A stretch of 64,000 nt of DNA from NCBI GenBank assembly GCA_000708835.1, contig DF237069.1:62001-126000 (forward strand), written 5' to 3'. A model generated the notes under the pieces. The model searched no databases, was not told the origin of the DNA, and saw nothing but the letters and a program-made list of their open reading frames with translations. This DNA comes from Klebsormidium nitens. Taxonomy: Eukaryota > Plantae > Klebsormidiophyceae. Position 1 is the stretch's first letter; each line of letters opens with the position of its first letter. Shown piece by piece: positions 23,201 to 47,034 of this stretch. Position numbers and translations under genes: made by a program.

Positions 23201-26200
23201 CGCTAACCAGCCTCTTAACCCTTCTTATAACCAGCAGTTCCCCCCACTTGGTTCTCTCCCTAACCCACCGCACAGCCCGTCTGCCGCCCTTGGTTTCTCC
23301 CCCCGAGCGCCGCCGATGTCGCCCCCGCAACTCGTCCCCGCCATGGAGATCCAGCAGCTGACGTTCTGGCTCAACGCCCAGATCGCGCACACGCTCGAGC
23401 AGTTCCGCTTCTCCGGGCCGCAGCACGCGTGGCACGTGCAGGAGACGCTGCGCGCGAGCGCTCACGCCTACTTCGACAACTACGTCCGCGAGAGGCAGCT
23501 CCAGATGCGCGGCGGCGCGCCCCCCCGCCCACTGCCGCCGCCTCACTTCTCTCCCGGGCAGGGCCCGTTCCCACCGAGCTCGATGCCGGGCCCGTTCACA
23601 CCGGTCTTAGGGGAGGGGCAATTCACACCTGGCTTGGGGCTGGGGGCGCTCCCTGCTCAACCCGTACCCTTCCCAACCCCGCTCCCGGCATCCCCGTCCA
23701 GTATCCCCAAGCCTGGTAGTGGGGTGGCATCTTCTGGGGGCCTCAGGACCCCCTCTCCACAACAAACAGGGGACCGGAAGAGTGTATCCGGTCCAGGGGG
23801 ACCGGACCTCGCGTCTGAGCTGGGCCTACCGCACGACCTCTCGCCGGAACCGGTGCCCCTCCGCATACGCTCTGAAGACGGCAACACGCACGACGGCTCA
23901 GCACTACATTCTTTGGACGGCACAGCGCAGCCGCCAAAAAGCTTAAAATGGCGAAAGAAGAGAACAGCCGACGGAACGACGCCGAGCACCTCAGGGGGGG
24001 GTCGAAAGACACTGGGGCTTTGGGGGGGGTTGCGGGTGCGGGGAGCGGCAGCTGCGGCAGCTGTCGCGGTTGCTGGCGATGGAGGAGACGGCGATGGAGA
24101 AGCACATCAAGGCGCACGACCTATACAACGTGCGGCTGACGCTGCAGGCCAAGGCCGCGCCGGGGGAGCCCGCGCTGCAGCTGTTTGCGCTCGAGGTAAG
24201 GAACAAAGCTGGCAATTACGGGAGGGTGCGCCAGGCGTGAGGGACCAGCTTTTTGAGAAGATGGCCCACGGTTGTAGGTTGTGCTGGTTAAAGGAAAGGT
24301 TGATTGAAGGGGTGTCACTTTCATGCTTTGAAAGAGGCTGAGTGGGAGCCCGAAGCATAAGCCGCTTGTGGCGCTCACGCGGACTTGTTTTCTAACGGGG
24401 AATGTTCAATTGGCGTTGCTTTCAGCGGTTGTAAGTGAAAGTGGATACGGTTTTGTCTTCAAAGTGAAACGCACCTAAGGGTCTGTTCTGGAACAGCACC
24501 CTCAAGAACATGAGTCAGGCGTCATTCTTGGTGAAATTTCCAACATTCACCGTCTCCTCTTTTTGACGCCTCTTTAGCGCTTTGTCATGGCTCGTCACTC
24601 ACGTGCTCAGAATGTCTTCCGTCATGTTCCGTCATAGGTTGCTTGCACTTTCTGTCTCGATGCGATCGCATGAGAAAGTTCCTTCGGCCCCCCAGGTCCC
24701 CGGCTTGCCCGAGAACCGGCCGTCCGTGCTGTACGCGGACGTTGTGTACCTGCGCGTAGCGTCCGCGCCGCAGGTCGAGTACGCCGCCTTTGTGTGGGCC
24801 GTAGAGATGCGGCCGTCCCCGCACGTCCTGCTGGCCATCGCCAAGGACCTGCCCACCGCCGCCAAGCTCCCGGTCAAGAAAACGGGCGGGGAGAAGACCC
24901 CGGCCTGGGCGCGGGCGCTGGCGGAGGAGGCCGTGCATGCCCGGTTCACTTTTGACCGGCTACTGCTCAAGGTATGCTTCTCCATAGGAAGGACCGCATG
25001 TTTTTCCAAGGAAAGGACCTGGCAATTGCGGAATCTGGGCTTTCGCAATTCAAAATGCAATTTGAGCCTTCGTGAGGTCCTGTCTCTACATTTGGCACGG
25101 CCCCTTTCAAGATTGTCCCCCCGTAAGCTAACCCGGAGTGAGGTACTGGGCGTCTTTGCTATTTCGAACGGCCGGTCAACAGCCGCTGGTGAAGCTTCTC
25201 CTCGCAGCACCTTTGCTTGAGGCACCTCGTGCGTAACATCCTTATGTCAATCACGCTTATGTCGAAACCCCAAAATTTGACCCACTGGTTCATCTCTTGG
25301 CTTCCCGTTCCCGCCGCAGCGGATGCACCTCGCCCTCGCCAAGGCCGCGCTCGCGCCTTTTCCCCTCCTCCCCTGCGTCTGCTCGCGCGACTCTCCCCGT
25401 CAGTCCATCTCACCTCGAAACCTAGACAACGCCCCAGATGCGGACCGACGAAAATGGTCGCCTCCCCCCGCTTTGAAGTCGTCCAGCCCTAATGGGCTGC
25501 AAGAAACTAGAGATGGCGGGCCAGACCCAGACTGGGCCGACTCGTTCGCCCCAATCAACGTAAAGCTGAACCGGCAGCAGCGGCAGGCGGTGGGCAGCCT
25601 GCTAGAGGGGGCCGGTGGGAGGGGCCCGTACATCATCTTCGGGCCCCCCGGGACGGGCAAAACCGTCACCATGGTCGAAATGTGCCTCCAGGTCAGCTAG
25701 CGACGTCACGCGTAGGCTGCACTTTTCTCGTGTGTGATACAGCCTCGCAAGGCAAGGAAAGAGATTCAGATACTGCTGGCTCTAGGAAGCATCCGGTGGA
25801 TTGCTCTTGTATCTGATGTCGATCTTTGTTGTGTTAGTTATGCTAAATCCATAAGTCCGGTGTACCGAGGAGTCAAACCAAACGCGCGCTATAGCCTCGC
25901 TTCACGTCACTTATCTCCCAAACTCCTTTGATGATTGACGCAGTTGGGCTTAGCACAGCAGGGGTGCTGACTGTCACGGCTGTCTCGTCTTGCACCTCTG
26001 ATGAATCGTGTGCCAAAATGCAGTTGCTCCAGAAGGGCTTCCCCGCGCCGCGCCGCAAGGCCCGGCTGTGCGTGTGCGCCCCCTCCAATTTTGCGGCGGA
26101 CCTGGTCTGCAGCGGCATCGCGGCCGGCGGCATCGGCACTGACGTCATGTGGCGCCTGAACGACCCCCGGCGCACGCTCGCCTCGGTCAAGGCGGACGTC

Positions 26201-29200
26201 GTCAGGTGAGCTGGTCGCACGATCTGAGCAGTCCGGAAAGGTTTATATTGTCGGCTCTGGAATACCTCGTCCTCTGAGAAAGGTTTAGGCGCTCTATAGC
26301 AGAAAGAGCATGATGCAGTGCAGACACTCGGTTGCCGCTTGAGCTGATAGACTTATCGAGACTAGACACTGACCACATCTTGCTCTCGGATCCCCTCGCT
26401 AATACCCTCCACATCTTGCTCGCCAAATTTCTCTTGACCCCTCCACATCTTGCCCGTTCATCTCCTCCCTATAACGCCCTCCCGTCCGCCCTATTTCAGC
26501 TACTGCAAGTACGACGCCGCAACGGGCCTGTTCGCGCTGGCGGCTGCGCCCTCGTCGTACCGTGTGATCGTGTGCACGTGCGGCGCGGCCGCGCTGCTGC
26601 AGGAGCCGCCCCTCGCGGACACCGCCGGCGCTTTTACGCACATCCTGATCGACGAGGCGGGCCAGGCGCTTGTCGCGGAGACGCTCATCGCGTTTGGGCT
26701 CGCGCGCGAGGACACCGAGCTCGTGCTCTGCGGCGACCCCCGCCAGCTGGGGCCAGTGGTAAGGTCGCCTTAACGGGAAAAAGATTTATCATACTGTATT
26801 CTGATATCCAGGAGACCTAAACTGTTTGGGAAATCTTAAATTTTGAAAATAGTCACACTATCAGGTGCGACCCATAGGAGACCTTTGTTCACGCTGACCC
26901 CTTTGTCTGAGACCGGTGTTGGTGATGAAGGGCTTTGTATAACAGGCGCCATATCGAAGCCCGCAAGTGGCCGGAAAGAACGGTGGACTTGAGTGTAGGC
27001 TCGAGGGTTTGAGGCACCTTTCACATGATCAACACTTGGGTTGCAGCCTGCCCGTGCGCAGCCAGGCGGGGCTTCTTGGAAGCAAGGGAAGACTGTTTCG
27101 CGGACTCCTTTATGCTTAGAAACACCGATTCGGCCCGTTGAGGAGCTAGCTCTCAGTCTCTTCTCTCGTGCAAACCGGGCTGCCGCTTTCGCCGCAGGTA
27201 CATTCCCCGGTTGCCGCCCAGCACGGCCTGGCGCAGTCGCTCCTCGAGTGGTACATGAAGGCAGCCGAAAGAGAAGCCGAGACACCTACCCCGAACCCTT
27301 CAAACCCCGAGGAGCCCGCCCCCGCGGCCGGCCACACCGACATCCTCCAACGAATGTTCCCTAAAGAAAACAATGGCCCTGCCAGTGCGGAAACTTCGGA
27401 AGGTGCGGGTAGCGCGGAGTATTCACACCGGACGCACGTGGTGAAGCTGGTGCACAACTACCGGTCGCACCGCAAGCTGCTGGAGCTGCCGTCGCGCATG
27501 TTCTACAAGGACGAGCTCGTGGCGACCGCGGAGGTGGGCGGGCCCGTCCGCTGGTCGCCGTCGCAGTTGGTGTTCGCTTGCCGCTTGAAGCTGGGCTCTT
27601 CTTACTTGGCGATAATACGCGCGGCTCAAAGTACCTCTCTCGACGAGGAGCTTGAGAACTGTGCAAAGTTTCCCGAGGCCCTAACACGGCAAAGCGGCCA
27701 GAAGTCAATGGCTGCTTCGCCTTTGATCTCTTTTGGCGGCCAGATCGACCAAGAATTGCCGTCTGACCTCAGTATGTGCTTTTCCCGTCCGCAGGAGGCA
27801 ATGGTTGAACCGCCTCGCAACTGGGACGAAATGCAGGGCAGCGACTTTCCGATGCTCTTCTACGGTGAGCCGGCTGCGGGCCGTTGAACCTCGAAACATT
27901 TCTCGCTTGACAGAGTCTGGTCCAAACACCTTTGCTACACACCTCCATATGATCCTTGTCATGTTGCCTTGGGCTTGATGGAGATAAGATGATCCTGGAA
28001 AGCACAAGGAGCTTGCGCAATTCAGGTATCCAGCTGTCACACGAGCGAGGTTAACACAAACCCGTACGAGTCATGTGGCCGCGGGCAGTGGGGTCGTTGC
28101 ATAGCAACACGGTGCCAGGCGCCCGAGGCTGAGAATTCCTCTGAGAAGTGACCGCGAAGAGGGGCCTGACGGTGACACGCCATCTGCATCTTTCGTAGGC
28201 TTTTTACGAAAACAACAGAAAGTTTCTTCTGCCTGCTCAATGCTCTTCTATCTGCACATATTTGGCCGCTTCATGGGAAGGCCCCGTGGATCCTGACTCT
28301 CGCCTTTACCCGCTGTGCGTGCAGGCGTGCGGGGGCAGCAGATGCGCGAGGGCGAGGCCCCCTCGTACTTCAACCCGCTGGAGGCGGAGCGGCTGGTGAA
28401 CCTGCTGGCGGGCCTGCTGCAGCGGGGCAACATCACCACCGCCGACGTCGGGGTCATGGCGCCCTACCGCAAGCAGGTGCGCGCGCGGCAGTCTCAGACA
28501 GACTAGAATGACAGCGGGAAAGAAGTTTGTCAAGCGCGTTTCGTAGTCTGTGTGATTCAATGCGCTGGGACAACGGCAATTTAAGACCGACCGTTTCCCA
28601 ATAAGTCGACGCAGCACTTGATTACCAAACTGCCCAAAAAAGGCTTAAACATTTGTAAAGTTTGGGGGTCGAGCTATGGAGCATGAAGGTCTTCCTTTAT
28701 GTTTCCTTTCTCCAAAAGGATATGCTCATCACTCTCTTGACCCTGCCATGACCCCCCTTATTCCCTCTTCTTTCCAATGCGCGCACCAATCGCGCACCCG
28801 TTTTCTTCGTGCCAGGTCCAGAAGTTGCGGCTGCTGCTGCGCGCGCGCGGGCTGGGCGCGGTGCGCGTGGGCACGGTGGACGACTACCAGGGCCAGGAGG
28901 AGCGCGTCATCTTCATCTCCACCGTGCTCACGCGGCCGCGCGCGGCGCACGCGGGCGCGAAAACGGGGCCCGACGGGAGCATCGGCTTCCTGGGCAACGC
29001 GAAGCGGTTCAACGTGGCGATCACGCGGGCGAAAGCGCTGCTGGTCGTGGTGGGTCATCCGGTGGTCTTGTTAGAAGACGAGAACTGGAGCCAGCTGTTG
29101 CGGTACTGTTTGCAGCGAGACGCGTACCGGGGGGCGGGGTCGGAGATGGTGCCGCGGTATGTGCGGCACGGGGGGGACGATTGGACGGTCACGGAGGGGG

Positions 29201-29372
29201 GGGGGAAGAGGGGGAGTATGAGGAGGGGGACGACGATATTGCGGAGGCGGTGGGGCGGATCGCGGAGCTGTCGCTGCTCGGGATGGGGGACCTGGACCGG
29301 CAGTTCCCGGAGGGGCTCGACTCGCAGTATTCCGCGTTTAGCGAGGATCTAGAGTGGCGGGTCGTGTTGTGA
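20213..29372 (+). CDS. SDE3: SDE3/MOV10-like Upf1-family (SF1B) RNA helicase with a long low-complexity insertion
   Basis: Exons: 20213-20305 (start uncertain), 20756-21260, 21515-21753, 22329-24195, 24696-24971, 25320-25691, 26024-26205, 26500-26758, 27198-27533, 27795-27864, 28325-28476, 28816-29372. Motifs LLAMEE, VPGLPENRPSVL, FGPPGTGKT, CAPSNFAAD, DEAGQ, GDPRQLGPV, NYRSH, YFNPLEA, VGTVDDYQGQE, RFNVAITRAKALL. Apparent frameshifts at G-runs ~23994-24045 and ~29170-29205. Confidence 0.92.
22021..22163. repeat. Dispersed 21-bp direct repeat in an SDE3 intron
   Basis: cgacaacacctctcatcagac at 22021-22041 and 22143-22163. Confidence 0.85.
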
Positions 29373-31364
29373 CGGCTCTTGCGAGGGCTAGGCAGCAGGC
29401 TAGGTAAAGCAAGCATTTTCATACTTCAAAATACGTAAAATGAACTGTAGATCTGGTAGAATAGGGATGACATTGAGTCGGGACCGCAGCGGATATATAG
29501 ACAGTGCTTTGGAGCTCCTCACCTTGTTCCTCCAGTTACAGAGAAGTTTCTGTTGGCTCTTGTTCTAGCTGAATCAAGAAGATGCATCTTTGCCATGTCA
29601 GCCATACAATGCACAGACTCTGCTGGAGTAGATTCTCGGGAAGCAAGGATGAGGCGTTACATGAATGCTTGCGGTGACATTGCATGTGCAGAAGCTTTTT
29701 AGATCCAAATGATGGTCAAGCTGCCTCGTCTTTCCGGCCCCAACTCCGTATTAGTAGGAATCCCAGCTAGTGGTACCTCGTGACCATAACATGCAATTAA
29801 CCGCATGATTGCATCGTGAAGTATCGGATCAGCTTGAAGGAGACGATTTTGCACGCCACGAATATCAACACTTGCAACATGAGAATGCAATCGTAATTTG
29901 GTTGAAGACTCGACTTGGAAAGAGACGCATGGACAGAGCCACACGTGCAAATCCGCGGCGGCCCCTGCAATTGTCGTTGATGGTCCTCTTGCAAGCAGCA
30001 GCCTGGCCGTTAACGGACTTGACGTTAGCGGAGATTGGATGATTACCCAATTGAATCGAAGTACGTCGAGGGGCAAGACTCGATCATGCACACACGAGCT
30101 AGCAGCGACGGTTCACCTTTGCCACAGAACGATGACATAGCCGTGCGTACGAAAAGCGTTGATCAGCACAATGCAGACTACAGCAATAATAATAACAATA
30201 CCAATACAAACATTGGTCGATGGCCAAGCCAACTCAAAGACTTGATGCCGTCCGATCCGAGAGCCCCTGAATGGAAATCCCTGCCCTCGAATTCTATTCG
30301 TAGCTTAGTATGAGGTAATTTGTAGAGCGTCAACCAACGCGATTGGAAGGGACGCCTAAATACACTTCGGTATTGCCAATGCTTGCATGTAATCAATATA
30401 TAGTTGAGGTGAATCATGTGCCCGTCAATTGCGCAAGCACATCTTAGGATCATGCACTAGATCATGCATTATCTCCTCTTGCTTCTAGTTTTATGATTGT
30501 ATTGCTGAGCCCTGGGCATTGATTCTGATTACCCATCCAAATCGCTAAGCAATCCAGGCATGAGTGCATAAGATGCAAGTACTAGTTTGAATGTTAATAG
30601 GCTTTCCGTTATTGAAATATCATAAGCATGCAAAACTCAAAAGCCTGGCTCTCGCTCTGCTCTTCTGCTGCCGCCTCGCATCGCTCTGCGTTGTGTAAGT
30701 CAATCTGGTCATTACCACTGGCCAAGACAAACCTATAAACAGGCTTGCACGAAAGCAACCATCAATTCCCGACAATGGTGAAGGCTCATAACCCCACACG
30801 ACATGCAACAAAGTATGGATGTTCCTTTAGGGTTCTGAACAACCCACTGTTTTTGTAAAGTTTCAGCACGTGTTGAAGCACTGAAGTGACCTGCTTGCCA
30901 GAAATGCGGCACCGCTCGTGACTCAACGGTACCTTTTTCTTCTCTATTTGAGGAGTTTTTGAGTCTCCGGCATACCCGGGATAGTTTGTTGACTGAGATC
31001 GCCGTGCTCCACGGCCATGGTGGCTAAGGACGTTAATGAAATATAGAAGTTACCATCACGTAGTACCATTCTTTGCAATCATCAATGTATACATTGGACT
31101 AGATTGTAACATGGTACGTGACAGACATAAACGATGGATGCCAGTTTTGATGTAATGAAAATCAGCAAATGCGCAAATATGCTGATTGATTCAGTACGGG
31201 CTATACATCAACGCATCAAGCTAGCGCTAGACAGACAATTTGAAGAACGTAGTCTGCAAAAGTCTTCTCCAACTAACGTTTGCCCATTTCAGGTTCTCCA
31301 AGTTGGTTCAGCATAGTATCGCGTGTTTATCGCACGAGATGCATGTCTGTCTGCATAACGGTTC

Positions 31365-34300
31365 CTATTCCTTTCCAAAGCAGGCTTTTAGTTGCCGCTC
31401 CTCCTTCCTAAAAGCCTGGTCATCTAAGGACTTTTGCGCAAAGCCAAAGTCGATGCAAGAGACTTTGTTCTGACCATCAACGATGAAGTTGGACAACCGT
31501 ACATCTCCGTGGAGGTAACCACGCCGATGAACCGACCGGAGCGCTTCAGCCGCACTTCTTAGAAGCCCTTTGTCGTGAACCATCAGAGGTCGACCCTCGA
31601 TCCAGGACAGAATCACAGCATACGTGGAATCAGTGTACGGGCCATAAGCCAGCAGCCGGGGCACTGTCACGTCCCACAGAGGGCTAAGCTCCATCAGAAC
31701 CGTGGCCTCGTTGAGCAGGTACCCCAATCTGGACGTCGATCGGCTCATGTCGAGCGTTTTCACCGCAACTGCTTTTCCACCGAATCTGCAGAGGATAAAA
31801 GAAGGTCGGAAGAAAGTCAGATCCTGCGGAGATTTGATGATTGCGAGTCTGGCGCAATTGAGCACATGTGTGGCACGCGCCAATCGTAAGTCAGGCAAAG
31901 GGGCCCACGCGCGCGTGGCAACAGAAGCTTCGCACTTCGTGAAACTTCACGAACTGCAGTACGAAAACATACACCAGAAGAATGATTGCGGCGCTGGTCT
32001 TGAATCGAGTTGTCGGCAAGACTCTTTGCTTTAAACTAGTTTACGGTGCAGATGCTTGCTGGCAGCACCACATCCTCTTTAGCAGCAGTGATTCGGAGAA
32101 CGGGAAAAGCCTCTGGCAGATTTGGAGTCGAAGAAGGATCAAAATACTTTGCAACAAGCCTTCCGCATCAACAACTGTAATGTCTTTTTCAGACGGAAAA
32201 GGTAGAGGATCGGACGTCGTCGAGAAAATGGTTACAAGCACAAGGTAGATTGGCAAGGTGCGCCTGCTTTGAGATTTTGATTACGTGTGGGTGCCAAGAA
32301 GGACACCCTCTACGAGCCAACACCGACAAGGATATTTCGCGGGATCAGAACGGGCGCGGAAAGACAACCGTTCGTGAAGCAGTCCTCCTGAGCAGCATAT
32401 CAATCATTCTACCCTCGTATCTGTCTAGCTTCATCCGAAATGCTCCTACGACCTCCACGGGGTTTGCTGGCTGAAAAGCAGAAGACTGTAAAGAAGAAGA
32501 ACCAGAAAACAGACTCCGGATCCTTACAGGCCTCTAAAAACGGCTCCAGCAAATCCGTCAGTGACAAATTCCGTTAACCAAACGTCCTCCCGAAGTCCCC
32601 CCTGCTCGAGCCCGTGGCTCCTCTCTGCAGGGTGCAGACGCTCTGCATACTCAGTACCGCCTCCATGGTCAATCTCCATGTTCGGGGCAACCTCGCCTCC
32701 TTGCTGGCCCCCACTGGGATGTCCGCAGCCCCTCAGCCCCTCAGCCTCACAGCCGCCTGCGCTCCCTACGTCAGCGCCAATCAGCGCAGCGTAACCCGCA
32801 TCTGCGCCGGTCAGCGCATCGGCCGTCGCGTCGGCACTGATAGCCGTCCCGCCCCCTGCTCCAGCATCGATTCCACCGTATCCGACCCACGCTCCAGCAA
32901 TAACGCNNNNNNNNNNNNNNNNNNNNTGATAGCCGTCCCGCCCCCTGCTCCAGCATCGATCACCGTATCGACCCACGCTCCAGCAATAAGCACTGCATTG
33001 CCGCCAGCGCCAGCCCCAGTCACTTCTTCGACCCCCCAATCCGCGCCAATTGCTGTGTCGCCCCTGGCGCCAGCACTCGTCGGATTGCCCCCGGCTCCAG
33101 TCTTGATAACCGAACCGGCACCCCCTCCGGTGCTGATCACTAAATCGCCCACCTCCTCAGAGCCGGTCAGCGCATCGGCCCTCGCGTCAGCTCCGATCAC
33201 CATGTCGCCTCCGGCACCGGCGCTGATAATTGTACCGCCCCCTGCTCCAGCACTGCTCACCGTGCGGACCCCCGCACTGATCAAAGTGCCGACCTCCGCT
33301 CCAGCACTAAACACTGCATTGGCCCCAGCGCCAGCCCCAGTCACTCCTTCGACCCCCCCATCCGCGCCAATCCCTGCGTCGCCCCTGGCACCAGCACTCA
33401 TCTCCGCATCGCCCCCTGCTCCAGTGTTGATGACCGCATCGCCCCCCGCATCAGCGCTGGTCAGCGCATCACCCCCCGCTCCAGCGCCGGTCAGCGCATT
33501 GCCCCCCGCTCCAGCGCCGGTCAGGGCATCGCCCCCCGCTCCAGCGCCGGTCACCAATTCGCCTCCGGCACCAGCGCCGATCACCGCGTCGCGTCCGGCA
33601 CCGGCGCTGATCGCCGCACCGCCCCCTCCTTGAGAGCTGACCACCGTGTTGGCCCCCGCGTCAGCGTCAATCAGTGCATTGCCCCCGGCGCCAGCGCCAA
33701 TCAGCACTTCGAGCCCGGCATCAGCACCATTTATTGCATTGCACCCAGCGCCAGCACTGATCACCACACTGCCCCCTGCTCCAGCACTAACCACCGTGTC
33801 TGCCCCCGCATCAGCACTGTATACTGCAGCGCCCTCATCAGTCATCATATCGGCCCCCGAATCAGCACCGTCTCGTTCGGTAACCCCTACAGCTGCACCA
33901 ATCACCCCCAAGGCCCCTTTGCCGGCGTCGTCTATTGCAGCTGCTTCCCCGCCAGCTCTCTTCACCACAATGCCCCCAGCGCCTGCGCCCAGGACCGCGC
34001 TGCTCACCCCAGAACCGGCGCCCTTCACGTTGCTACCGCTCATTGCGGAGCCGCTGGCCCCCGGGTAACTAGCATCTGGGCCGCTGGAAGAACCGCTCCG
34101 CGGCCGAAGCTGTCGGGTGTTGCGGGGGAAGATGGGCGGGAGCTGGTTCACGTTGATCGCGTCTGGGAATGTCGGGGCGTCTTCTTCACCCAGGAGAACT
34201 TTGGTGGCATAATAGATGAGCTCCACACAAAATTCCCAGAGTTTTGGAAACTGAGCGATTAGAACCGCCACTTGCAATCATACTGAAACTCTGTATAAGC

Positions 34301-36842
34301 CACTATGCCCTATCTTCACAGCCCCATGACCACTTCCAATCTGATTCGTTCGAGGGCCCAATATCAGCCAGAGGCAGCCTGAGCAAGGCCCGCAATTGGA
34401 GACAAGCTTGCTTTCAATCGCTGTGCTTCTGATAGCCAGACTGCTCAGAAAGTCTGGCTCACAAAGGCTGGCTTTTCCTTTACTGCCTAAGCATATTTGT
34501 ACAGTTGGCTCTTACCATCTCGAAAGCTGTGCAAAGTCTTACTCACAATATCTGCAAAGGTGCAAAAAAATCCGGCGGCAGAACACAGTAGCATGGACAG
34601 CCCATGCCTGGATGGAAGAGAAGTATCGATACATCGTTGCAGCCCTAACAGTATAGTCCAGCTCTTTTGTTATCTGCACATGCCCAGCTGATCCGAATCC
34701 CACAACTTGTCCCCAATTTGTCCCAGGACCGCGATGACACATACTGCAAGTGTAGGAACGTCGCAAGGCCATGAGCTTCATACACTCCTCTTGCAATCTC
34801 CTCAGACAATCCGAAACAACGACTCTGACCATATCCAATGACGGGTAAATCTCAAGCCTGGGGGCTTCTTTGCCAAACAGGTCGGAAAGGCAAGCGGAAG
34901 GAAAGAATAGAATTCAGACTGACCTCATGAGTGCTGGGACCGACATCCGTGGACCTGAAGTGTTCTGATAAGAACGGGTCCTCCAAGTTCTCAGGGTCCG
35001 TGACAAGGGCCCACGTGAAGGCGTCGCACGTGAGCAGGGCAATAGAATAATTCCCCCTTCTTGAATAACCATGGATCTGCAACACAGAGCAAACACGTCA
35101 ATCTTAAAGGACCCTGAACCACAGTCCCCAGAAGATCTAAGAAATCATGCTTTGGACTCCCAGACCCTTCTTCCTGAATCTGGCCTTAATTGACGCACTG
35201 TAGACTGGCGGCTTCTGGGTAGGTTGCCACCCCAAGAAGCAAAGGACCCGCGCTGCTCAGCCTTGTCTTATTTCAATTCAGCAACAGTCTGTGCAGCAGC
35301 ACACTCTCTCTGCCCAAAGCTTCATACAGGCAGCATGCCGGGAACCTGCTGCGTAAGTAAGTCTTCATCGATAAGCTTTGCTCAGTTCCCTTTAAGGCGA
35401 GTGTGCTTAGTCTACAGCACAAGCTTGAACAACTAGAGACTCGTACCTGACCAAGCGACTTTGTGATAGGGTGCGAATCGTCGCCTTGGTTGAAGACGTC
35501 CACCAGGTCCACCTTGGGGTCCTCTTCCGGCTTGATTAAGAGGGGACGATCCAGGCGGTCGAGGTTAGCGGCCTCCATATCCCGGGATGTGCGCCCCTCA
35601 TGGAGTATCCACAGGCATTTAGCCTCGGCAGCCCCCTTTTTGTGGTTAGTATTTGGGATCATGAGGTTGACATCGGGTTTTTTCCCGCTTGGGGCCCCCC
35701 CCAGGCTGTTCCGCCCTGGCACGGCAGCGTTAGGAGGTAGCCTCCACTCAAAGCGAAGCCTCTGGTCGTGGTACTCCTTCTTCAGGACCCGGTTGACAAT
35801 CTTGAATGCCTGCAGCAAGTTGCGAGTACGAGTGAGGACACAGCCATATAGCCCCCAAAAAAGCAGGCTTTCCACAAACACAAGGCCTATCCTCTTGATG
35901 ATCAGCGGGCTGTCACATGCAGGACTTGCGCTCATATTCATCTACTGACACAGGTTCAGTCGGTCATCAAATCAAATTTTCATCCTACTTCATGCGCTCT
36001 CGAGAATTGAGCAAAACACATGAACCAAAACGGTAAGAGCTGGTTTTTGCATATTAGAAAGAAGAAGGCATGATGCTTCTGCCAGGCACAAAGGAGTACT
36101 TACGTTATGATACACATTGCTGTGCAGCTGCGCTTCACCCTGTGAGGGTTCCTGGCGCTCTCGGTCAAGTTCTGGGGGGACAAAATCACGGGTTGTGTCC
36201 TCCTGACTGTTCATGAATTGCCGTACCACGGGTTTCAGCTGACACCGCCTGATCGTGCGCGGAAACTGGTTGACTAACGATGACGAGCACCTCAGCATTC
36301 TTGCTTCCTGGTGTGCTACACCATTGTTGGTCGGGAGGGCCAGCAGTTCCTTGCGGGACACCGGGCCTGTAAGAGGATTGAAAAAGTAGTAAGACATTCC
36401 AAATTGAGCCAGGAATAGCCTCAGCAGGAAGGGCTTTGCAGACCTCAGGCATGCTGTTTAGCTATCGGTATTGCTAAACCTTGAGATAGTTTCTGCTAAG
36501 GCCTGCCATTTTCAGGCTGAAGACATAAGAACTGCTTCTACTACTCTCAGCCTTCAGAAGCATCCGTGGTACAAACGCTCAGCACATGCATTCAGGGTAG
36601 ATATCCAACCCACCTATGGACCTAGGGCCGCAAATGATGGACCCAGCTTGCAGGAACATCTCTTCCACGTAGCTCGACCTTCCTGCATAGATCATTGATC
36701 CCTCTGCAGTTTTTGCATATGCAAGTCCAGTTGCTGTCAGAAAATCGGGTATGCTAACGCAATTCTCGAGCAACATCACCATCCTTTGCTCCTCCATTTC
36801 TTCACCATCATAGCGGACACGGAATGTAATGGAAGTAGCCAT
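31365..36842 (-). CDS. Multidomain Crinkler(CR)-effector-like protein (~1000 aa): Ubl-like N-terminal header, PD-(D/E)xK nuclease, Gly/Ala repeat, atypical protein kinase
   Basis: 6 exons with consistent phases: 36842-36614, 36366-36104, 35809-35447, 35076-34924, 34250-32528 (spans the N gap), 31785-31365. Nuclease motifs KPD-x15-EAK and Q|IHGY (QxxxY). Kinase motifs AVAVK, LLNEA, HGDVRLSN, IDFG. The first exon is the least certain. Confidence 0.85.
32750..34050 (-). repeat. Degenerate 30-bp (10-aa) coding tandem repeat, consensus roughly GAGAGG-x-A-(L/V)-(T/I)
   Basis: Clearest at 33481-33570 (ccagcgccggtcagcgcattgccccccgct-like units). There is also an internal ~100-bp duplication, ~32991-33080 versus ~33311-33400. 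Confidence 0.9.
32907..32926. other. Assembly gap (20 N) flanked by near-identical ~67-bp copies
   Basis: 32838-32906 and 32927-~32992 are the same sequence apart from small indels in the left copy. Confidence 0.95.
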
Positions 36843-37264: not shown

Positions 37265-39865
37265 ATGGCATCATGTCAGGCCCTTCTCCAGCAGCAGTGG
37301 AAGTTGCTGACGGCAGGTGCAAGCGGACGACAGCCGCCGCTGCCCTTTTCCACATTGCCACCAGTGCCTGTAATTTCGGTGCACTCGCTCCGTTCCCTTC
37401 ATATGTCGCAACCAGCACCCTTGCCCAAAATGTCGCATTCAGGACCGCCGCTGGCTTCAAAGTCAGGGCAGCCTTTTCCACAACTTATTTCAGACTGCAG
37501 GAGGCAGCGGGGCACGCGCCACGTTTTGCATAGGATGATGGCCGTTTTGCATAGGATGATGGCAAACTCTAGCAATGGTGGTGGGAGCGAAAAGTCTTTC
37601 GAGGCAGACATTGAGACTAACGTGAAGCCCGTAAGTGAACTGGGCACAGGCGCTGTTGACACCGAGGAAAGCGAGCAAACGGGGCAACCAATTGCGGCAT
37701 TGCGATCGCAAGAGACCCCCGACAATGTCAATGAAGGTGCAGTGCGTTTTCTGAGGGCTCCCGTGTGGAGGGCGGTGGGGAAGGCGCTGTTGATACCTGT
37801 GGCTCTGCTGGAGCGGACTTTAAATGGTGAAGTGAGCCCTGCTGCCTAAAAAAAATTCTTGTGGGTCTGGGCACTGGTCGAGCCTCTGATCGCAGGTCGG
37901 CAGGGTGGTGGGTTTTCCAATGTTGTTAGCAATGTTCCTCTAGTGCAACCATCATTCTGAAAGTCCAAGCTAAGGACGGGGTGGTCACGTCTTGTGGACT
38001 GCAAGCGGTCACTCTGCTCATGTGTGAGGGAGGCCGTTTGACTGACTTTTGCAGTCCCACATGGCATAGAAGCACAGGAAGCGCGTAGATCCCATCACCA
38101 ATGGCAGAGAGTTTTGGCCCCAGGAAGTCGGATCAGAAGAGTCTACCTGCACCACAATGGTCACTGGGTACCGTCAAGTGTGCCCACTTACTGGTCACAT
38201 CATTTCTTAGAGCCTGCCTCGGCCGACAATACGAAAGCCCAGACGTTCTCTGACTGATGCGCCGCTAGACCTGCTCATGTTGGAAAGTATAATCGTGAAA
38301 CTATGTGAGATTAGGCAGACAACCTTTGTGGCTGCAACGTGACTGACGTAAACATGCTTGCACAGTGGTCAGATCCGCCCAATCAGAACCTGCATCCACA
38401 ATGAATTTCTCGTCGCTCAACTTCTGTGCGGGTGCTTCCGGCCAGTGTACCGAGTCACCTCGGCGTCTCAATCCCCAGACCCATTTTGTATCAGCTTTCT
38501 TTTGTGTGAAGTCTGCTTATTTGTAGTCCTGATCTTTGACCGCAATCTCCTCACAGTGGCTGCGCAAGGAGTGGCGCGTCCCCTGGGGCGTCCACGCCAC
38601 GTTTGCCGTCTTTTTCGGCTCCCAGTTTGCGGCGGCTGTCATGGGCCAACTCAGCGAAAACCTCCTGTGTCGCATCCTGGGGTCGGAGATCGCCGGGAGC
38701 GAGCTGCAGCGCTTTGTTTCGCGGACCGCCGCCTACCTCACGGTCGCCCTTATCCTGGAGGTGTTCCTTTCCAACCAAAAGAAGAAGCTCGAGGAGAACC
38801 CGTTTGAGATGGGGCGGACGTCTCGGTGGGGGCAGCTCAAGTGGGTGGCCCTTTGGTTGGCATTCAGGATCTTGTGGGGGGGGATCGCGTCCCGGGGGCT
38901 CGTACTTTCCGGGATGTGCGAGCCGCCGTCGGCGTTTCCAATTGAGCGCATGCCGCTTACTCTGGAGCACGACATGCGGCTGGGGATCGGCGGAGAGGTC
39001 GTGGGAGGTGAGAAGCGAATGATGACAGATGTCGTGTCAAAAAAGGGCTTGATTGAATGTGTGCACATTCAGTTTCTTGTTGGTTGACATTGGTCGGCGA
39101 CTTAGACGGGAAAGGGCCCGTGTTGACAGCAAAAAAGGCAACGCAGGCTCAAGGCAGCTTGCCAACCGAAACGGCTGACGCTCGCTTTCTTGGCTGTCAA
39201 CTTTTTGTTGTGCACGGACTACCAACGGTATCACGGTATCACGGTATCATCCAAATCCAAGTCTTCACCCCTTCGGCCAATCTCAGACGGCAGCAAAGAG
39301 CCTCCTCGCTTGTCCCGACTTTGATTCACTATGTATCCGTCTCTGCACATTCTGCCGCCTCTTGATGACAAACCCGCCTTTCGGACCATGCTGAAAAAAG
39401 ACCAGACCTTGTCGCTGTGCAGGCCTGAGCGCGGAGACCGTTGCGGGGATCGCTCGATTCGCGGGCCCGCTCAATTCCCTTCTGGACGTCGCGGTCGCCC
39501 CCTGGTTCGAGGAGGCGTTCTTCCGGGGTTTCCTCCAGACCTCGCTCGCATCTGCAATCCACCCCCTTGGAGCAATCATAACAACAGCGTTCTATCAAGG
39601 GCTGGTCTTCACAGGCCGCTTACATCAGTGCAGCGTACGGCCTACGGTTCTTCACCCGCTGAGCCTCCTCTGGCGGTGGGGTGCCGAATCCGCGCTGGCT
39701 GCTGTGGCGTATGGTTTCGTATACCAGAGGACACGCTCGCTGGTGCCAGTAGTGCTGCTGCACCAGCTAGAAATTGTCTCCAAAATGCTGATCGTTCTAC
39801 AGGAGAGGGCGCTTATTGGGACGTTCCTGAAAGTGGCCTTGCGGAAAAGTGCTGCAGGACAGTAA
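37265..39865 (+). CDS. CPBP/CAAX-protease (Rce1/Abi-like) family membrane protein with a probable organellar transit peptide
   Basis: In-phase exons 37265-37831, 38557-39007, 39423-39865. Motifs WRVPW, APWFEEAFFRGFL, YQRTRSLVPVVLLH. Ser/Pro/Arg-rich N-terminus. Confidence 0.82.
37522..37563 (+). repeat. Exact 21-bp in-frame tandem duplication (VLHRMMA x2)
   Basis: cgttttgcataggatgatggc occurs twice. Confidence 0.95.
39225..39248. repeat. Intronic 8-bp tandem repeat, three copies
   Basis: acggtatc x3. Confidence 0.9.
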
Positions 39866-41022: not shown

Positions 41023-44000
41023 TCAGACTTGAGGTATGGTCCATTTCCGCAAGCACGCATCGTCTCCAGCAGAAAGAAGGAGCGTGTTGCTCAGCCACGC
41101 GACCGCCGTGACGCCGCCCGGGTGAGCGCCCTGCAGCAGTGCGGAGGCAATGTCAGCTCCCGCAGCACATGGACGCTGTTTAGTCTCTTGAAATAATAAC
41201 AATAAGCTCGTCCTCGTAATCAGATCTGGAGATGACTTCTTCAAGGCTCTGTAAACCTTGTGCCACAATGGCCTTCCAAGCCCAGTGCTGCTCACTAGTC
41301 CCACCTTTGTGGCACTCAGGCTTACGTGAATCGCATGCAGGAGAAATACACCTCCCCAGCACCGTGGCTGGCCTTTCTCTGTTTCTCGCACGGCTGCAGG
41401 ATCTTTCAAGGAGTTTTGCTCGGGGGCCTTCTTCCAGTTGTTCAAGTTTTGGTCAGTCATCGACGGTCCAGAATGAGGTGCGCCGTTTGATGGCAAAAGC
41501 AGAGCTTAAACTAATTACTCAACGGGAATAAGAGTGCCGCCTTCGGTCGCACCCTACCTTGATGGACTGCCGCGCGGAGGCCGGCTTGTTGACGTCCCAC
41601 ACGAGCAGGTTGGTGTCCAGGGAACCGGTGGCGAGCCGCGTGCTGTCGGGGGACCACGCGATGCTGCTGATGCGCGCCGTGTGGTACAGCATGTCCTTCA
41701 GCTTCACCTGGAGAGGGAGCGCAGGAGCCGTTCATTTTACAATAGATGACTTGGTCTTGCGCTTGGAGATGCGGTGAGCAAAGTGGATTGTGATAAAGAC
41801 CGTGTGCTGAATCTCATGTGTTCGTACTGTCCGCATCCAAGAAAACGCGATCACTGCCCTTCAATCTCTTATAACCTCTTAATTTTCAGCAAGATGTAAT
41901 CGATGTCTGCCACCCCGGTTGGAAGGTCGATTTGTGGCTCGACTCCAACCTTCCTGTTACACTCGACTTTCAAACATCAAACGCCGACGGCCCACCTCTC
42001 TCGTGACCCGGTGCCACACGACAGCTTCTCGGTTCTGGTCCGCCGTCGCAATCCAGGCCCCGTCCGGTGAGTAGCGCACGGCCATGATGGGACCCCGGTG
42101 CCGCTCGAGAACCGCCTCCTCTTCGAGAGAATCTCCGGACACTCTGTACACGCGCACCTTCCCGTCCGAACCCCCAACAGCGGCCTCCTTCCCGTCCGGC
42201 GCCAGCCCTGCGGCGGTCGCGTTGTAGCCGACTTTCGTTGTGGAAACTAACTGCAAAGAGGAGCGGTGAGGTTCGCAATGCTGAGTGGCTTTTGTATGGC
42301 GGAGCGTTTTCTTCGTTCTTCGGCAAGGTGTTTTATAGTTCAGCTCTTGGCCGAAAAGAATACCAAATCTCTCGCTCAGCGCGCCTGCAGGTTAAGGGAA
42401 CTCATCCAGCGGTTGGAATGTACTGATCAGGAAAGACAGCGCATCGGTATGTGGGGGCAGCCTGCTTCACCATGTCCGTCGTGCAAGACTTGTCGTGCAA
42501 GACAGGGCAGCGAGGCGCTCATCCGCAAGCTCTCGAGATGGGTACCGCCTTCCTCAATACAAGACCCGAACAGCTTTCTGCTGATCCCCCCAGCCGAAGC
42601 TGCCAAACACACTGCAACATCTTCAAGGCCAAGAGGCTACGTTGCGGAGTCCTCAGCGGACAAACTGACTTCGGCCACTCGCTTTGAGTATATACCTGTC
42701 CATCTCGGAAAGACACGTTGCCGTTCACTTGCCTTTCCATCTCGGAGCAACACGATGCCGTTCGCAGTTGCGACGATTGCTAGGTCTCCGGCCACGTCCA
42801 GATCGCTCGGTTGGCCGCCCAGAGGGACTGGCCCGGGCGCTTCTGCGTACTGCTCGGCTGGGAGCGGAGTCCGTCGGAACGTGTCGTCGAGACCTACGGA
42901 GAGCAGTTCTTGGGACGTAGGAGACACCGCGAGAGCAACGATGCCGTTGGTGTGACCTGCACGGAAAGGAGCGGTTGGTGCCAAAAATTTCGAGAGTAGC
43001 GCAGTGAGGTTCCACGATGACTGCGAAGACGGAAGTATGGTCTTCGCAAGATTGAAACGAAGTTGCACACTCAGTAGTAGGCTGCTCAAGGAATTGAAGA
43101 GCTTCGTCATGCGTAAAACCCCCAACATATTTGGGCTTGTTGCCAGTAGTAGCCGGCTGGTAACTCACGGCTCAAACGGCTCAAACCTGACCTTTCCTGC
43201 GGCCTCGATGTGAATCGAACTTCCTTGAGCTCGAAACCCCAAAGAGCACAGAAGTGTTTTCATCATTGCGGCGCAGATTGCTCCAAAAACCTCTCTCAAT
43301 ATAATACTGTGCCGCATTTGACAACGCCTTCCATGGTCGTTGCTCCGTGAGATTTTCTTAGCAACTACCATTTGCTCAAACAAATAAACATGGAAAAGAC
43401 TTATGGTTAAAAGTTCTAAATCCTCCGCCCAGCGACAGAATCTTTGCCCACCTTTGCCCTGAACCTTCCCAAGGCACCCCCGCTCGAGGTCCCATCGCTG
43501 CACGCTCCCGTCGTAGCTCCCGGAGAAAGCCTCCCGTGCTGGGCCGTGCTTGGCGGGGACGACGGCAAGCGCGGTGACGTACTTGACGTGGCCGGAGATG
43601 ACGCGCGCGGGCTGCTGCGGGTGGGCGGGGTCTAGATAGTTGATGGCGCCGCTGAGGGAGACGGTGAGCAGGCGCTCGTTAAGCCAGAGGCAACCGACCT
43701 GCGGAACAGTTACGAACAAAAGATTGAACTGAGGATCCTTTTGAGCGCGGGTGCCCGGCAACTGCAGGTTGGAAGTCCCCGGAAACATATATAAGTGAAC
43801 CGACGGTGGCGAGAGAGCGACGGCAAATACAGGGTAGGACGAGGCACAATCATGTCGATGGGCCGGTAAGGGGCATTCGGGCTAGAAAGAGGAGGCCAAT
43901 CGGCGTGGGCATGCGACGCGTCATTTTCCGAGCAGTTTTGGTGCTCGTATAGCAAGCAGGCTGTGAAAGCCTAATCAGTAGATTCGTCGAAGCAAACCCA

Positions 44001-46581
44001 CAGTCGGCCGAAACGGGAAGCTGAGCTACTACAGCTGTGGAGAGGCCAAGAAGAAACTGGTCCACTGCAACGTCTACTGGGAAAGTTCGATTTTCATTTT
44101 CTTCCAGGTGACGAAAAATCGCTCTCGTGACCTGTCTCGTGGCAAAATCCTACATATTCCATGCCATCAGTCTGAGAAATTGCAAGTCTGAGAAATTGCA
44201 AGGGAACCCTGGCAGTTCAAGCCGTACCTGCATATCCTCCACGGTGGGCTTGGCTGCAAACGAGAACGTAGTCTCCACTTCTCCCGTGCTTCCATCATCC
44301 GCAATGCTCCAGATCTTGGCCGTCTTGTCAGCTGATACCGTCAGAATCTGCAAACGATCAAAACGGCGGATGATGAGTCGAGCAGGGCGGAAGAAGATGT
44401 TCGAGCATGAGCACATCGCAATGAATGACGAATCCAGTACAAGACTTCACAAGAAAAGGTGAAGGGCAAAGACTGTGCATGAATAAAAGCGAAGTCTTCA
44501 AAGCCCGGGAATCGCCACAGGTGCGTAAGAGGTCTAATGTTGCCAAACATGGCTGCTGCGTGGCCCGAGAGCCATGCCTTTCCCTGCACGTCCTCTTGAC
44601 TAACCACAGTCATATTCGTGGACTTCTGATTAAGTCCACGAATATGACCGTTGTTTTTGAAATGCAACCCTGTTGCCAGTGGGATCAGAATGGAGATATT
44701 TTGCGAGTAGAACCAACCCCTCTCAAGACTTCCAGTTCTTGCAAACACGGTGAAGCAGTCATCTGCCGATTCTCATGAGCGTCCAGTACAGGCGGGGTTC
44801 TGTCTACCTTCTTACTGTCTGGGCTCCAGCTGAGTGCGTAGATGCTGCCCTTGTGGCCGTTCTCCTTCTTCAGCTCGCCCTTCTTCTCGCCTGTCGCCCC
44901 ATCGTAGACGAAGCCCTTCTGGTCTGAGGACACTGTGATGAACTTCGTTCCATCCGGAGAGTACCTCACGCAGTTGACAAAGTTGGAATGCTCCCTGCAA
45001 TGACCATCAAGATAGGGTGGTTTTAAGGTTCCTGCTGATGACTACACATGAAATCTTTCAACAATCCATTTTGCGGACCGTTCAACGAAATCTCGTGAGG
45101 TCCAGTATGCAAAGATGATCCACAAGTCAGGTCCGAGCCAAGACTGTATATGCTTCAGAATCTTGCAAGCCCATCTTATTGCTCTGCGCAATCTTACCCG
45201 CCTCTTATGGCTGATGAAAACCTGTTCTGCAGCCATTCCAGTCTCCAGCGATCTGTTGAGGCCAAAGACTGTCTGGACACAATAGCAGGTCACCAGGGTA
45301 AAAGAATGGACTCTTCGAGGTCCAGCTTCTAACAGGCGATGTTTAGTGCAGAGATGCTATGTCAGCAGGTATGTTGCGCACCTGTGGGAAGTTTTGAACT
45401 TGAACGGCGGCCCCTCGTAGTAATTCACCACGAAATCCTCCCCGCATGAAGCAATCCGGAAGGGCCGGGAGGGCTTGAAGCTACAGCTCAGGACTCGCTT
45501 GGAGTGGCCCTCAAACTCGCCCAGGTTGCCCCCAGCGTCCCACCTGCAATTGGCACAGTTTAAGTACACAAGTTATCTCAAAACAATAGGCTGCCTGAAA
45601 TCCTCTCATATTGTGCTGCGTGAGAAGATATGGTACACCAACGATTCTTCACCAAGATTGATTCTCTGAGATTGTTGTCGGCTAGTTGAGGGAGAAACCA
45701 CACAGCAGCATCGGGTATCAGAACTGATTGCTGACTCGATGGCCAGGTGCTCCCCAGAATTCCCAAAACTTACGTGAAAGCGCGCACGAATGTGGCACCC
45801 TTTGCATCGCCGCACACCACAATCCGCTGGCCGTCTGCCGACCACTGAAGGTCGTCCACACTGCCCCCCAGGGCCCTCAGCTCGTACTTCAAGCGGTGCT
45901 CAGGGCCATGGACAGCCCAGACACGGACCTGACCAAGACACAGTTTGAGACATGCTTGTATATCGCCAAAGTTTCTGGGCCTTTAACAATTCTGACATGG
46001 CTTTCGTCAGATTGTGGTGCGCTTGTCAGCTGAAAACCAGTTTTTCTCCTAGAAACACGAGTTTTTGGCTTGATTGGTGATCCTTTCCAAACAATTCTGG
46101 TAACCTGAGGGTTTGTTCGTGAAACCTGTCCTCCCTCCATCAAAAAGGGAAAGAGACCTCCGGAACATGGCAGGCAAGTGTTGCATTCCCCATCTTCCAT
46201 TAAAAAGGAACCTGCTGATGAAGCACAGGCCTAAAGAATCCAATTTCCAACAGATGTAGCTGCATAGCCGGTCCTTGACTGAGTGCCCCTGAAGAAATAG
46301 AACATGACACACATAACCCAGTTCTAAAGCCCTACCTGTCCCGAAATATCTGCTGAGGCCACCCATTCGCCATTTGGACTGAATCTTGCCACTGTGGTTG
46401 CGTAAGCGTGCTCACTGTAAATGGTGCATTCTAGTGGGTTTTCCAAGCTCCGCAAGACAACTGATCTGCCATTTGTGTAAGCAAAGCGCCCTGTCTTCAC
46501 GTCTCCCGCAATGAGGATGCCCCGACCTCTTTCTGTGCCTGGCAGACAGGCATGTGTGGTTTCCAGTTGAGGAGCAGCCAT
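41023..46581 (-). CDS. AIP1: Actin-interacting protein 1 (WD40 repeat, WDR1)
   Basis: Motifs [104 protein letters not shown], spread over multiple exons. Confidence 0.96.
44170..44201. repeat. Intronic 16-bp tandem duplication
   Basis: gtctgagaaattgcaa occurs twice. Confidence 0.9.
44609..44648. repeat. Perfect 17-bp inverted repeat with a 6-nt loop in an AIP1 intron
   Basis: gtcatattcgtggactt (44609-44625), loop ctgatt, aagtccacgaatatgac (44632-44648). Confidence 0.95.
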
Positions 46582-47034
46582 GGGCCCACTTTGAAATTCG
46601 CCAGACAATGCAGCCACTTCTGTTTTTTGGGCAAGGCAGAATGCGCCCTTCGAGACTAGTAGTAGCAAAGTTACCCAGTCTGCTGCTCCGTTCAGGCTCT
46701 TCGAGTCACAGAGCAGTCTGAGCTGCGACAGCCACTGGCTTCATACTTTGAAAAGTTTCAGGCAGAAACGAGAAAGCAAATGTCGGCTCAGCGAGTAGCG
46801 CACATCTAGGCTCAAGGGGTGGCACCACTGTGACCTGAGTTGTATCCTAGAAGCACCACTCACCTGCATCTAGAAGTACCTGAACGTGGAGGAGCTGCTT
46901 GATGCATGTTGTCAGGATCCCTCTTCTGGTCGTCTTTGAAAGCACTAGCTAATTGAGCGGTCCATTTGATCTGCACGTATAGTCGCTGCCTGTGATTGCA
47001 AGCTGGTGGACTTCTTGCAATTGTTGGTGCCACT

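What the first reader, a model, noticed from the sequence alone, without database searches (positions are those of the whole stretch)
31365..36842. Spliced Ubl-header / restriction-type nuclease / Gly-Ala repeat / atypical kinase gene: a Crinkler-like conflict effector in a green alga
Seen in sequence: six exons join in phase into one ~1000-aa protein. It carries an apparently intact PD-(D/E)xK active site (KPD-x15-EAK, then QIHGY, the QxxxY helix seen in RecB/HsdR-type nucleases). It ends in a kinase with VAVK, alphaC Glu, HGDVRLSN and DFG but a very short C-lobe. The 76-aa first exon resembles a beta-grasp fold (SMIYAGR versus ubiquitin LIFAGK). Established: N-terminal header + REase + kinase is the Crinkler/RHS-type (CR) effector architecture known mainly from oomycetes, fungi and some plants. 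Inference: this may be a toxin, antiviral or anti-parasite effector with a nuclease regulated by its own kinase. I am not aware of a described member with a ~430-aa repeat spacer between the two catalytic domains.
Basis: partly seen in the sequence, partly recalled or inferred. Interest (0 to 1): 0.82.

Follow-up and report, generated by a model that had tools for sequence, protein, structure and literature searches.

The report
Mis-spliced Crinkler-like nuclease-kinase gene in alga
A green alga transcribes a gene that lines up a predicted DNA-cutting domain, a glycine-rich repeat and a kinase, as Crinkler and fungal spore-killer proteins do, but the RNA forms seen stop just after the nuclease, so it is likely a recently crippled, possibly splicing-silenced, self-restraining toxin gene.

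Summary
The parts are real; the ~1000-aa protein was not seen in RNA. The gene is Klebsormidium nitens KFL_001200125. Exons 2-4 encode a predicted restriction-type nuclease closest to SPOK2_N and Crinkler+kinase clusters (TM 0.58-0.63). Exon 6 encodes a short-C-lobe kinase. The 10-residue repeat models weakly as a beta-solenoid, RTX-like but without the RTX consensus. The Ubl header is unproven. The DNA allows a 1020-aa frame through an acceptor at 34250. RNA contigs confirm four junctions and show the scaffold gap to be an artefact, but the 34250 junction appears in 0 of 8 runs. Intron 4 is kept or spliced out of frame to 34162 (7 of 8), giving 359- or 340-aa nuclease-only products. Contigs drop rare forms, so a minor fusion is not excluded. 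Best reading: a Crinkler/Spok-type nuclease-plus-kinase gene with a novel repeat insert whose intron-4 splicing has recently failed. Rivals: a splicing switch, or a split toxin and antidote. The scan noted a broken gene of this architecture before, in a rotifer.

The parts
36614..36842 (-). Exon 1, 76 codons from ATG 36842; candidate header domain (Ubl/PB1-like by eye only). The public model starts later, at ATG 36695.
   Evidence: RNA contig covers 37023-36613 and joins exon 2; no fold or family match
36104..36366 (-). Exon 2, conserved segment N-terminal to the nuclease core
   Evidence: junctions in 4 of 4 runs; 38-61% identical relatives P0005, P0010
35447..35809 (-). Exon 3, predicted PD-(D/E)xK-type nuclease core: Asp of KPD (35674-35672), Glu of LHEGR (35599-35597) with Arg where Lys is usual, Gln of QxxxY at the exon end
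   Evidence: Atlas feature score 0.95 and TM 0.63 to SPOK2_N clusters; conservation in 5 aligned rows; coordinates
34924..35076 (-). Exon 4, rest of QxxxY helix and C-terminal strands of the nuclease
   Evidence: junction 35447/35076 in 3 of 4 runs; 49-71% identical relatives P0009, P0011, P0012
34163..34923 (-). Intron 4 as used in RNA: retained, or spliced out of frame to 34162; internal donor at 34515 used in one run; strong unused acceptor at 34552
34161..34250 (-). In-frame 30-codon segment behind the unused acceptor at 34251; inferred last helix of the nuclease domain
   Evidence: open frame and AG in phase; likeness to the helix of P0003 by eye only, not significant (1485 of 5000 shuffles scored as high); junction in 0 of 8 runs
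32772..33818 (-). Gly-Ala 10-residue repeat, about 25 units, predicted beta-solenoid, RTX-like
   Evidence: period 30 nt; amino-acid autocorrelation 0.40 at lag 10; model pLDDT 56.6 with a strand every 10 residues; VIA-align Z 11.2, rmsd 2.6, 107 aligned to an RTX domain, tied with CsgA Z 12.0, rmsd 7.4
32838..32926 (.). Assembly artefact: duplicated contig end plus 20 N
   Evidence: 34-nt exact duplicate on both flanks; skipped by RNA contigs with 255+ letters on each side in 3 of 4 runs
32528..32771 (-). End of exon 5: linker and kinase Gly-rich loop (32562-32545)
   Evidence: donor at 32527 used in 3 of 4 runs
31365..31785 (-). Exon 6, kinase with VAVK, alphaC Glu, HGDVRLSN, DFG and a one-helix C-lobe; not in the public gene model
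   Evidence: Pfam APH E 9e-10, Pkinase 1.6e-7; aligns with P0002 and P0003, which end in the same way; no self hit among stored proteins

Best explanation
This is a transcribed Crinkler/Spok-type gene for a predicted DNA nuclease and a kinase, separated by a predicted beta-solenoid repeat, whose fourth intron is kept or spliced out of frame in the RNA seen, so that it likely makes only a cut-short, probably inactive nuclease and is likely a young loss-of-function allele. When intact it would work like SPOK: the nuclease would damage DNA and the kinase would hold it in check (inferred from PMC6660238 and PMC9972908). The repeat would be a rigid, possibly Ca2+-sensitive spacer (inferred). Shown here: exon structure, RNA junctions, premature stops at 34150 and 34854, and an intact kinase frame. 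Inferred: nuclease activity, that 34250 was the ancestral acceptor, that the short product lacks its last helix and is inactive, and that the defect is recent.
For: The in-frame junction appears in 0 of 8 runs from 7 studies, the out-of-frame junction in 7 of 8, the retained intron as one contig in 6 of 8. Both forms stop at 340 or 359 aa. The public model P0001 ends in the same out-of-frame tail. In the 6 runs with a simple graph, retained plus out-of-frame depth is 0.85-1.24 of the upstream depth (rough, X17 and X19 left out). The used acceptor 34162 looks cryptic (2 T in its tract, against 5-9 in the four normal acceptors), and the unused 34250 has a competing AG at -22. Leaky scanning to the kinase frame is unlikely: 27-40 upstream ATGs, no depletion (criterion from the abstract of PMC11291117). 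The 2052-nt repeat+kinase frame has no stop; in simulation it stays open in 399 of 1000 trials at 1.9% substitution and 80 of 1000 at 4.9%, so any decay is young. Family.
Against: Contigs drop rare forms and cannot show absence; the rarest branch kept had depth 13 beside 26 and 41, so an in-frame form under roughly a quarter could be hidden. The junction contigs have only 28-30 letters per side, under the tool's 31-letter bar, and no contig spans nuclease to kinase. The gene has no nonsense or frameshift lesion; the repeat shows more change at third codon positions (0.27/0.28/0.42); it is transcribed in all 7 studies sampled. The test that the 34250 segment completes the nuclease failed to reach significance. 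All runs match the window letter for letter, so only one genotype was sampled and no relative's acceptor could be compared (one search gave a false hit).
Confidence: 0.5

Rival explanations
1. Regulated unproductive splicing: the full 1020-aa nuclease-repeat-kinase protein is made from a minor or inducible in-frame splice at 34250, and retention or the 34162 acceptor keep a dangerous nuclease switched off in ordinary culture.
For: All six exons are intact and in phase through an ordinary CAG; repeat under apparent protein-level constraint, including a 150-nt internal duplication that kept the frame; only introns 4 and 5 are retained, while introns 1-3 are spliced out; contigs hide rare junctions.
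Against: Not seen in any of 8 runs from 7 studies. The in-frame form should escape nonsense-mediated decay and so be enriched, not depleted (general knowledge). No conserved regulatory element could be shown.
Confidence: 0.25
2. Split toxin and antidote: the 340-aa nuclease is the working toxin, and the repeat-kinase is made separately, from ATG 34594 (with the 34516/34162 splice) or ATG 34043 on a transcript that starts inside intron 4, and protects in trans as SPOK kinases can.
For: Junction 34516/34162 in X17 puts ATG 34594 in frame with a 681-aa repeat-kinase frame. SPOK kinase rescues in cis and in trans, and a truncation lacking the kinase is toxic (passages of PMC6660238). An internal start would also explain RNA cover of intron 4.
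Against: That junction is in 1 of 8 runs, and one frame in three is expected by chance. 33 ATGs precede 34594 on a full-length RNA. Contigs cannot show a start site. No stored protein matches the kinase exon or the start of exon 5.
Confidence: 0.17
3. A domesticated, non-cutting derivative: the D...E-G-R site binds nucleic acid without cleaving, and the short nuclease-fold protein is the real, harmless product.
For: Arg or Cys stands where Lys is usual in all 5 aligned rows; exons 2-4 have 38-71% identical relatives, whereas none was found for the start of exon 5.
Against: Asp and Glu are kept, and an invariant Lys lies 7 residues before the Glu and could substitute; the kinase and repeat frame is still intact; one search was a weak search.
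Confidence: 0.08

Closest known systems
Crinkler/RHS-type (CR) REase + kinase proteins, e.g. CRN8 (Zhang et al. 2016, seen only through the review PMC5289972)
   Same: Order header - REase fold - kinase; QxxxY helix; short kinase C-lobe; TM 0.58 to a cluster carrying PF20147 Crinkler and Pkinase; a liverwort protein, P0003, has a related kinase (E 3.8e-7). [quoted passage not shown]
   Different: About 320 aa of 10-residue Gly-Ala repeat between the domains; Arg after the conserved Glu; no Pfam Crinkler hit for exon 1; no close paralog among stored proteins; the RNA seen does not encode the fusion.
SPOK spore killers of Podospora (PMC6660238, PMC9972908; PF27653 SPOK2_N)
   Same: Best feature and structure match of the nuclease (0.95; TM 0.63); HsdR-like PD-(D/E)xK core with QxxxY, followed by an atypical kinase; supplies the tested mechanism (nuclease kills, kinase resists).
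   Different: No C-x3-C-x13-C-x5-H-x7-H cluster before the kinase (translation); repeat insert; no evidence of meiotic drive; fusion not seen in RNA.
RTX calcium-binding beta-roll repeats
   Same: Gly at positions 2 and 4 (15 and 23 of 25 units), Asp/Asn at 6 (14 of 25), hydrophobic at 8 (23 of 25); phmmer hit to an RTX block, E 4.4e-4 with composition bias 13.7; fold match Z 11.2.
   Different: Period 10, not 9; 0 full matches to the RTX consensus; intracellular eukaryotic setting; the fold match ties with curli and antifreeze solenoids, and Foldseek gave nothing at E<=0.001.

Membership tests
CR (Crinkler/RHS) REase+kinase | N-terminal header domain (Ubl or helical) | tested here: inconclusive
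   Exon 1 is transcribed but has no Pfam, NCBIfam or PDB sequence match; the Atlas search held only its last 27 residues and found nothing; it was not folded
CR (Crinkler/RHS) REase+kinase | Restriction-endonuclease fold with QxxxY helix | tested here: met
   Atlas feature score 0.95; TM 0.58-0.63 to SPOK2_N and Crinkler+kinase clusters, about 0.5 to HsdR_N (both sides are predicted models, query mean pLDDT 0.51); own single-sequence model failed
CR (Crinkler/RHS) REase+kinase | Intact PD-(D/E)xK catalytic triad | tested here: inconclusive
   Asp in 4 of 5 rows, Glu of LHEGR in 5 of 5, but Arg (4) or Cys (1) two residues later; Glu of EAK in 2 of 5, its Lys in 5 of 5
CR (Crinkler/RHS) REase+kinase | C-terminal kinase with catalytic motifs and short C-lobe | tested here: met
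CR (Crinkler/RHS) REase+kinase | Nuclease and kinase in one polypeptide | tested here: inconclusive
   DNA allows 1020 aa; the RNA contigs show only forms that stop at 340 or 359 aa, but contigs cannot show absence
CR (Crinkler/RHS) REase+kinase | Multi-copy expansion; delivery to a target cell or nucleus | not testable with these tools
   No genome held; no paralog in the window; the other hits are unnamed metagenome fragments
SPOK spore killers | Cys/His cluster before the kinase | tested here: not met
   The segment 32771-32528 has two Cys eight residues apart and no C-x3-C-x13-C pattern (motif)
SPOK spore killers | N-terminal coiled coil | not tested
   no coiled-coil prediction was run
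SPOK spore killers | Killing of non-carrier spores with self-resistance | not testable with these tools
   needs crosses or heterologous expression
RTX repeats | Nonapeptide G-G-x-G-(N/D)-D-x-(L/I/F)-x | tested here: not met
   0 full matches; period 10; no unit has Gly at position 1 (consensus from the listing of PMC7354457); no Pfam hit
RTX repeats | Parallel beta-roll fold | tested here: inconclusive
   low-confidence model (pLDDT 56.6, pTM 0.52); RTX Z 11.2 ties with CsgA Z 12.0 and an antifreeze protein Z 10.4

The most novel reading that the evidence does not exclude
A Spok-like selfish or defensive nuclease-kinase gene in a streptophyte alga uses splicing of one intron as its switch: one locus yields a nuclease-only toxin, a separately started repeat-kinase antidote and, on induction, the fused protein, with an RTX-like beta-solenoid acting as a calcium sensor between toxin and antidote.
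Probability: 0.15. Interest if true: 0.75.

Novelty: new variant of a known kind. Interest (0 to 1): 0.4.

Why it matters
What Crinkler-type genes do in free-living eukaryotes is an open question (stated in PMC12957317). This one is transcribed in a culturable relative of land plants, resembles the only mechanistically tested nuclease-kinase pair (SPOK), and carries a repeat insert not found in my searches. If it is a recently crippled allele, it shows one way a host disarms such a toxin, and that the public annotation misses the first 49 codons, the repeat and the kinase. If the splicing is regulated, it would be a splicing-controlled toxin/antidote switch that RT-PCR and yeast assays could test directly.

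Tried and rejected
No whole genome is held, so paralogs could not be counted. AlphaFold on P0001 alone failed (pLDDT 30) and was not used. A profile of exon-3 relatives found nothing in the PDB; hhalign of A1 against P0003 gave probability 0.09; Pfam, NCBIfam and PADLOC gave nothing for P0001. The metagenome scan returned one locus, L001, a chance match to the antisense frame of a bacterial gene; rejected. Viral contigs: none for the nuclease, one generic kinase fragment. No relative of the start of exon 5 among 40 candidates (weak search). P0013 is a repeat artefact and was dropped. The test of the 34250 segment against P0003 was not significant, and other AG-started tails scored higher. The codon-position entropy used units picked by amino acid and is biased; one search is the unbiased version. 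A hidden cassette exon restoring the frame is possible on paper (620 paths) but none is seen in RNA. Leaky-scanning bicistronic translation was rejected. The runs are labelled RNA only by guess; GT-AG joints and introns 1-3 skipped by contigs show that they are spliced RNA. X19 was too shallow to cover intron 4 fully. In some searches the slice called e5c was out of frame; no conclusion rests on it. Zhang et al. 2016 is not held; its supplements, not seen, may already list this gene. One search fetched an unrelated paper.
Full report
Observation. The finding is a minus-strand gene at 36842-31365. Splice-site reading gave six exons. Exon 3 matches, at 100%, a stored 291-aa protein named KFL_001200125 of Klebsormidium nitens. 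That public model starts 49 codons into exon 1, ends just after exon 4, and omits the repeat and the kinase; no stored protein matches the kinase exon itself. A 20-N gap sits in exon 5 at 32907-32926, with a 34-nt exact duplicate on both flanks.

RNA test. Twenty public runs hold part of the stretch. I laid 8 of them, from 7 studies; all are assembled contigs, not reads. Over the whole gene (4 runs), junctions 36614/36366 and 36104/35809 appear in 4 of 4, 35447/35076 in 3 of 4 and 32528/31785 in 3 of 4, and the gap artefact is skipped in 3 of 4. For intron 4 (8 runs), 34924/34250 appears in 0, 34924/34162 in 7, an unbroken contig through the whole intron in 6, and 34516/34162 in 1. The 34162 splice is out of frame and stops at 34150 (340 aa); retention stops at 34854 (359 aa). 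The public model ends in the same out-of-frame tail. In the six runs with a simple graph, the out-of-frame junction carries 0.33-0.47 of the two forms, and together they make 0.85-1.24 of upstream depth (X17 and X19 left out; contig depth is rough). Limits: contigs drop rare forms; the junction contigs have 28-30 letters per side, under the tool's 31-letter bar; no contig spans nuclease to kinase; no run differs from the window in any letter, so one genotype was probably sampled.

Nuclease. No profile library names it. The Atlas search of residues 112-291 gave a feature score of 0.95 to a cluster with SPOK2_N on 11% of members. Its structure matches were SPOK2_N (TM 0.63, meets the bar for a name), a Crinkler+kinase cluster (0.58), other fungal kinase-linked clusters and HsdR-type nucleases (about 0.5). 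Both sides are predicted models, and my own single-sequence model failed. The only sequence relatives are eight short gene-caller fragments from unnamed contigs, 38-71% identical; a ninth hit was a repeat artefact. In five aligned exon-3 rows the Asp of KPD is kept in 4, the Glu of EAK in 2, the Glu of LHEGR in 5, followed by Arg in 4; the Lys of EAK is invariant. The Glu that ends a hydrophobic strand is the usual catalytic position (general knowledge), so the site is better read as D...E-G-R. Whether it cuts is open. The 30 codons behind 34250 resemble by eye the last helix of the nuclease-like region in the liverwort protein P0003, but a shuffle test did not support this (1485 of 5000).

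Repeat. About 25 units of 10 residues span 33818-32772. In a fixed 30-nt register the mismatch rates by codon position are 0.27, 0.28 and 0.42, and a 150-nt internal duplication kept the frame, which suggests selection on protein. A three-row model has a strand every 10 residues at pLDDT 56.6. VIA-align ranks curli CsgA (Z 12.0, rmsd 7.4), an RTX domain (Z 11.2, rmsd 2.6, 107 aligned) and antifreeze solenoids as near ties; Foldseek gave nothing at E<=0.001; phmmer hit one RTX block at E 4.4e-4 with strong composition bias. There is no full RTX nonapeptide. It is a predicted beta-solenoid of RTX-like pattern; calcium binding is a guess.

Kinase and header. The kinase has all named motifs and hits APH and Pkinase; its Gly loop is at the end of exon 5. 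Two eukaryotic relatives end in the same one-helix C-lobe, so the short lobe is normal for this group. Exon 1 is transcribed, but no test matched it to a beta-grasp fold; the likeness to ubiquitin is recalled, not tested.

Mechanism. In SPOK3 the nuclease is needed for killing and the kinase for resistance, in cis and in trans (passages of PMC6660238); SPOK1 kills through DNA (abstract of PMC9972908). The review PMC5289972 (passages and section 11) gives the same division for Crinkler REase+kinase proteins. The intact gene here would work likewise. The RNA seen makes a nuclease without kinase and without the inferred last helix in growing cultures, so that product is most simply harmless. Translation of the kinase frame by leaky scanning is unlikely: 27-40 ATGs lie upstream, without depletion (criterion from the abstract of PMC11291117). 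The repeat+kinase frame would usually have gained a stop by 5% neutral change (80 of 1000 open; indels not modelled), so a defect must be young. I give 0.5 to a recently crippled allele, 0.25 to regulated unproductive splicing, 0.17 to a split toxin and antidote (junction 34516/34162 opens a 681-aa repeat-kinase frame from ATG 34594) and 0.08 to a non-cutting derivative.

Known and new. Crinkler homologues in chlorophyte algae and land plants are reported (passages of PMC12957317). Alternatively spliced killer genes exist in rice (abstract of PMC13562694). Searches for Crinkler with Klebsormidium gave one oomycete paper, the locus tag gave none, and none of the 15 listed of 148 RTX papers named Klebsormidium; one search gave only PMC12957317. 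Zhang et al. 2016 and its supplements could not be read. Neighbours are ordinary: a MOV10-like helicase on the left, an Rce1-like protease on the right (108 of 164 frames scanned), and no paralog in the window.

Verdict. A real, transcribed variant of a known kind: Crinkler/Spok-type nuclease plus kinase, with an unusual solenoid repeat and consistently unproductive splicing of the one intron that would join the two enzymes. Interest 0.4.

Noticed in passing
window 34551-34516 (-): A 36-nt exon-like unit inside intron 4: strong acceptor (13 of 17 pyrimidines) and a GTAAGA donor that is used in one run, in frame with the kinase frame at 34162 but out of phase with exon 4.
   Followed up: partly
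window 32527-31786 (-): Intron 5 is also covered by unspliced contigs in 3 of 4 runs, at lower depth than the flanking exons; splicing of the 3' half of the gene seems generally inefficient.
   Followed up: no
window 37023-36843 (-): The RNA-covered leader holds four upstream ATGs (37003, 36988, 36943, 36936), which could lower translation further.
   Followed up: no
window 30964-31037: Beyond the 3' end, a 34-nt piece is shared with an unrelated contig in 4 of 4 runs, with an opposite-strand joint in one; single copy in the window. Possibly a small repeat or transposon end.
   Followed up: partly
window 34923-34770 (-): Relatives P0011 and P0012, read through by a gene caller, show that the 5' part of intron 4 is still alignable but frame-shifted between copies: homologous intron, not a conserved exon.
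   Followed up: partly
window 24567-29369 (+): MOV10-like RNA helicase (MOV-10 barrel, AAA_11, AAA_12), tail to tail with this gene; an RNA-silencing or antiviral type of gene, link unknown.
   Followed up: no
window 2-14787 (+): Very large gene or genes with filamin/Ig-like repeats and REJ-like segments.
   Followed up: no
window 17346-18814 (-), 39395-39862 (+), 41960-45041 (-), 46996-47427 (+), 56988-57497 (-): PGA_cap (bacterial capsule synthesis-like), Rce1-like protease, WD40, SRP19 and short-chain dehydrogenase exons.
   Followed up: no
protein P0002: An amoebozoan-labelled transcriptome protein has the same kind of kinase behind a short N-terminal domain but is too short to hold a nuclease: a possible stand-alone kinase of this group.
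   Followed up: no
L002 5001-5084: Kinase fragment in a viral contig (46% over 28 aa); looks like a generic kinase match.
   Followed up: no
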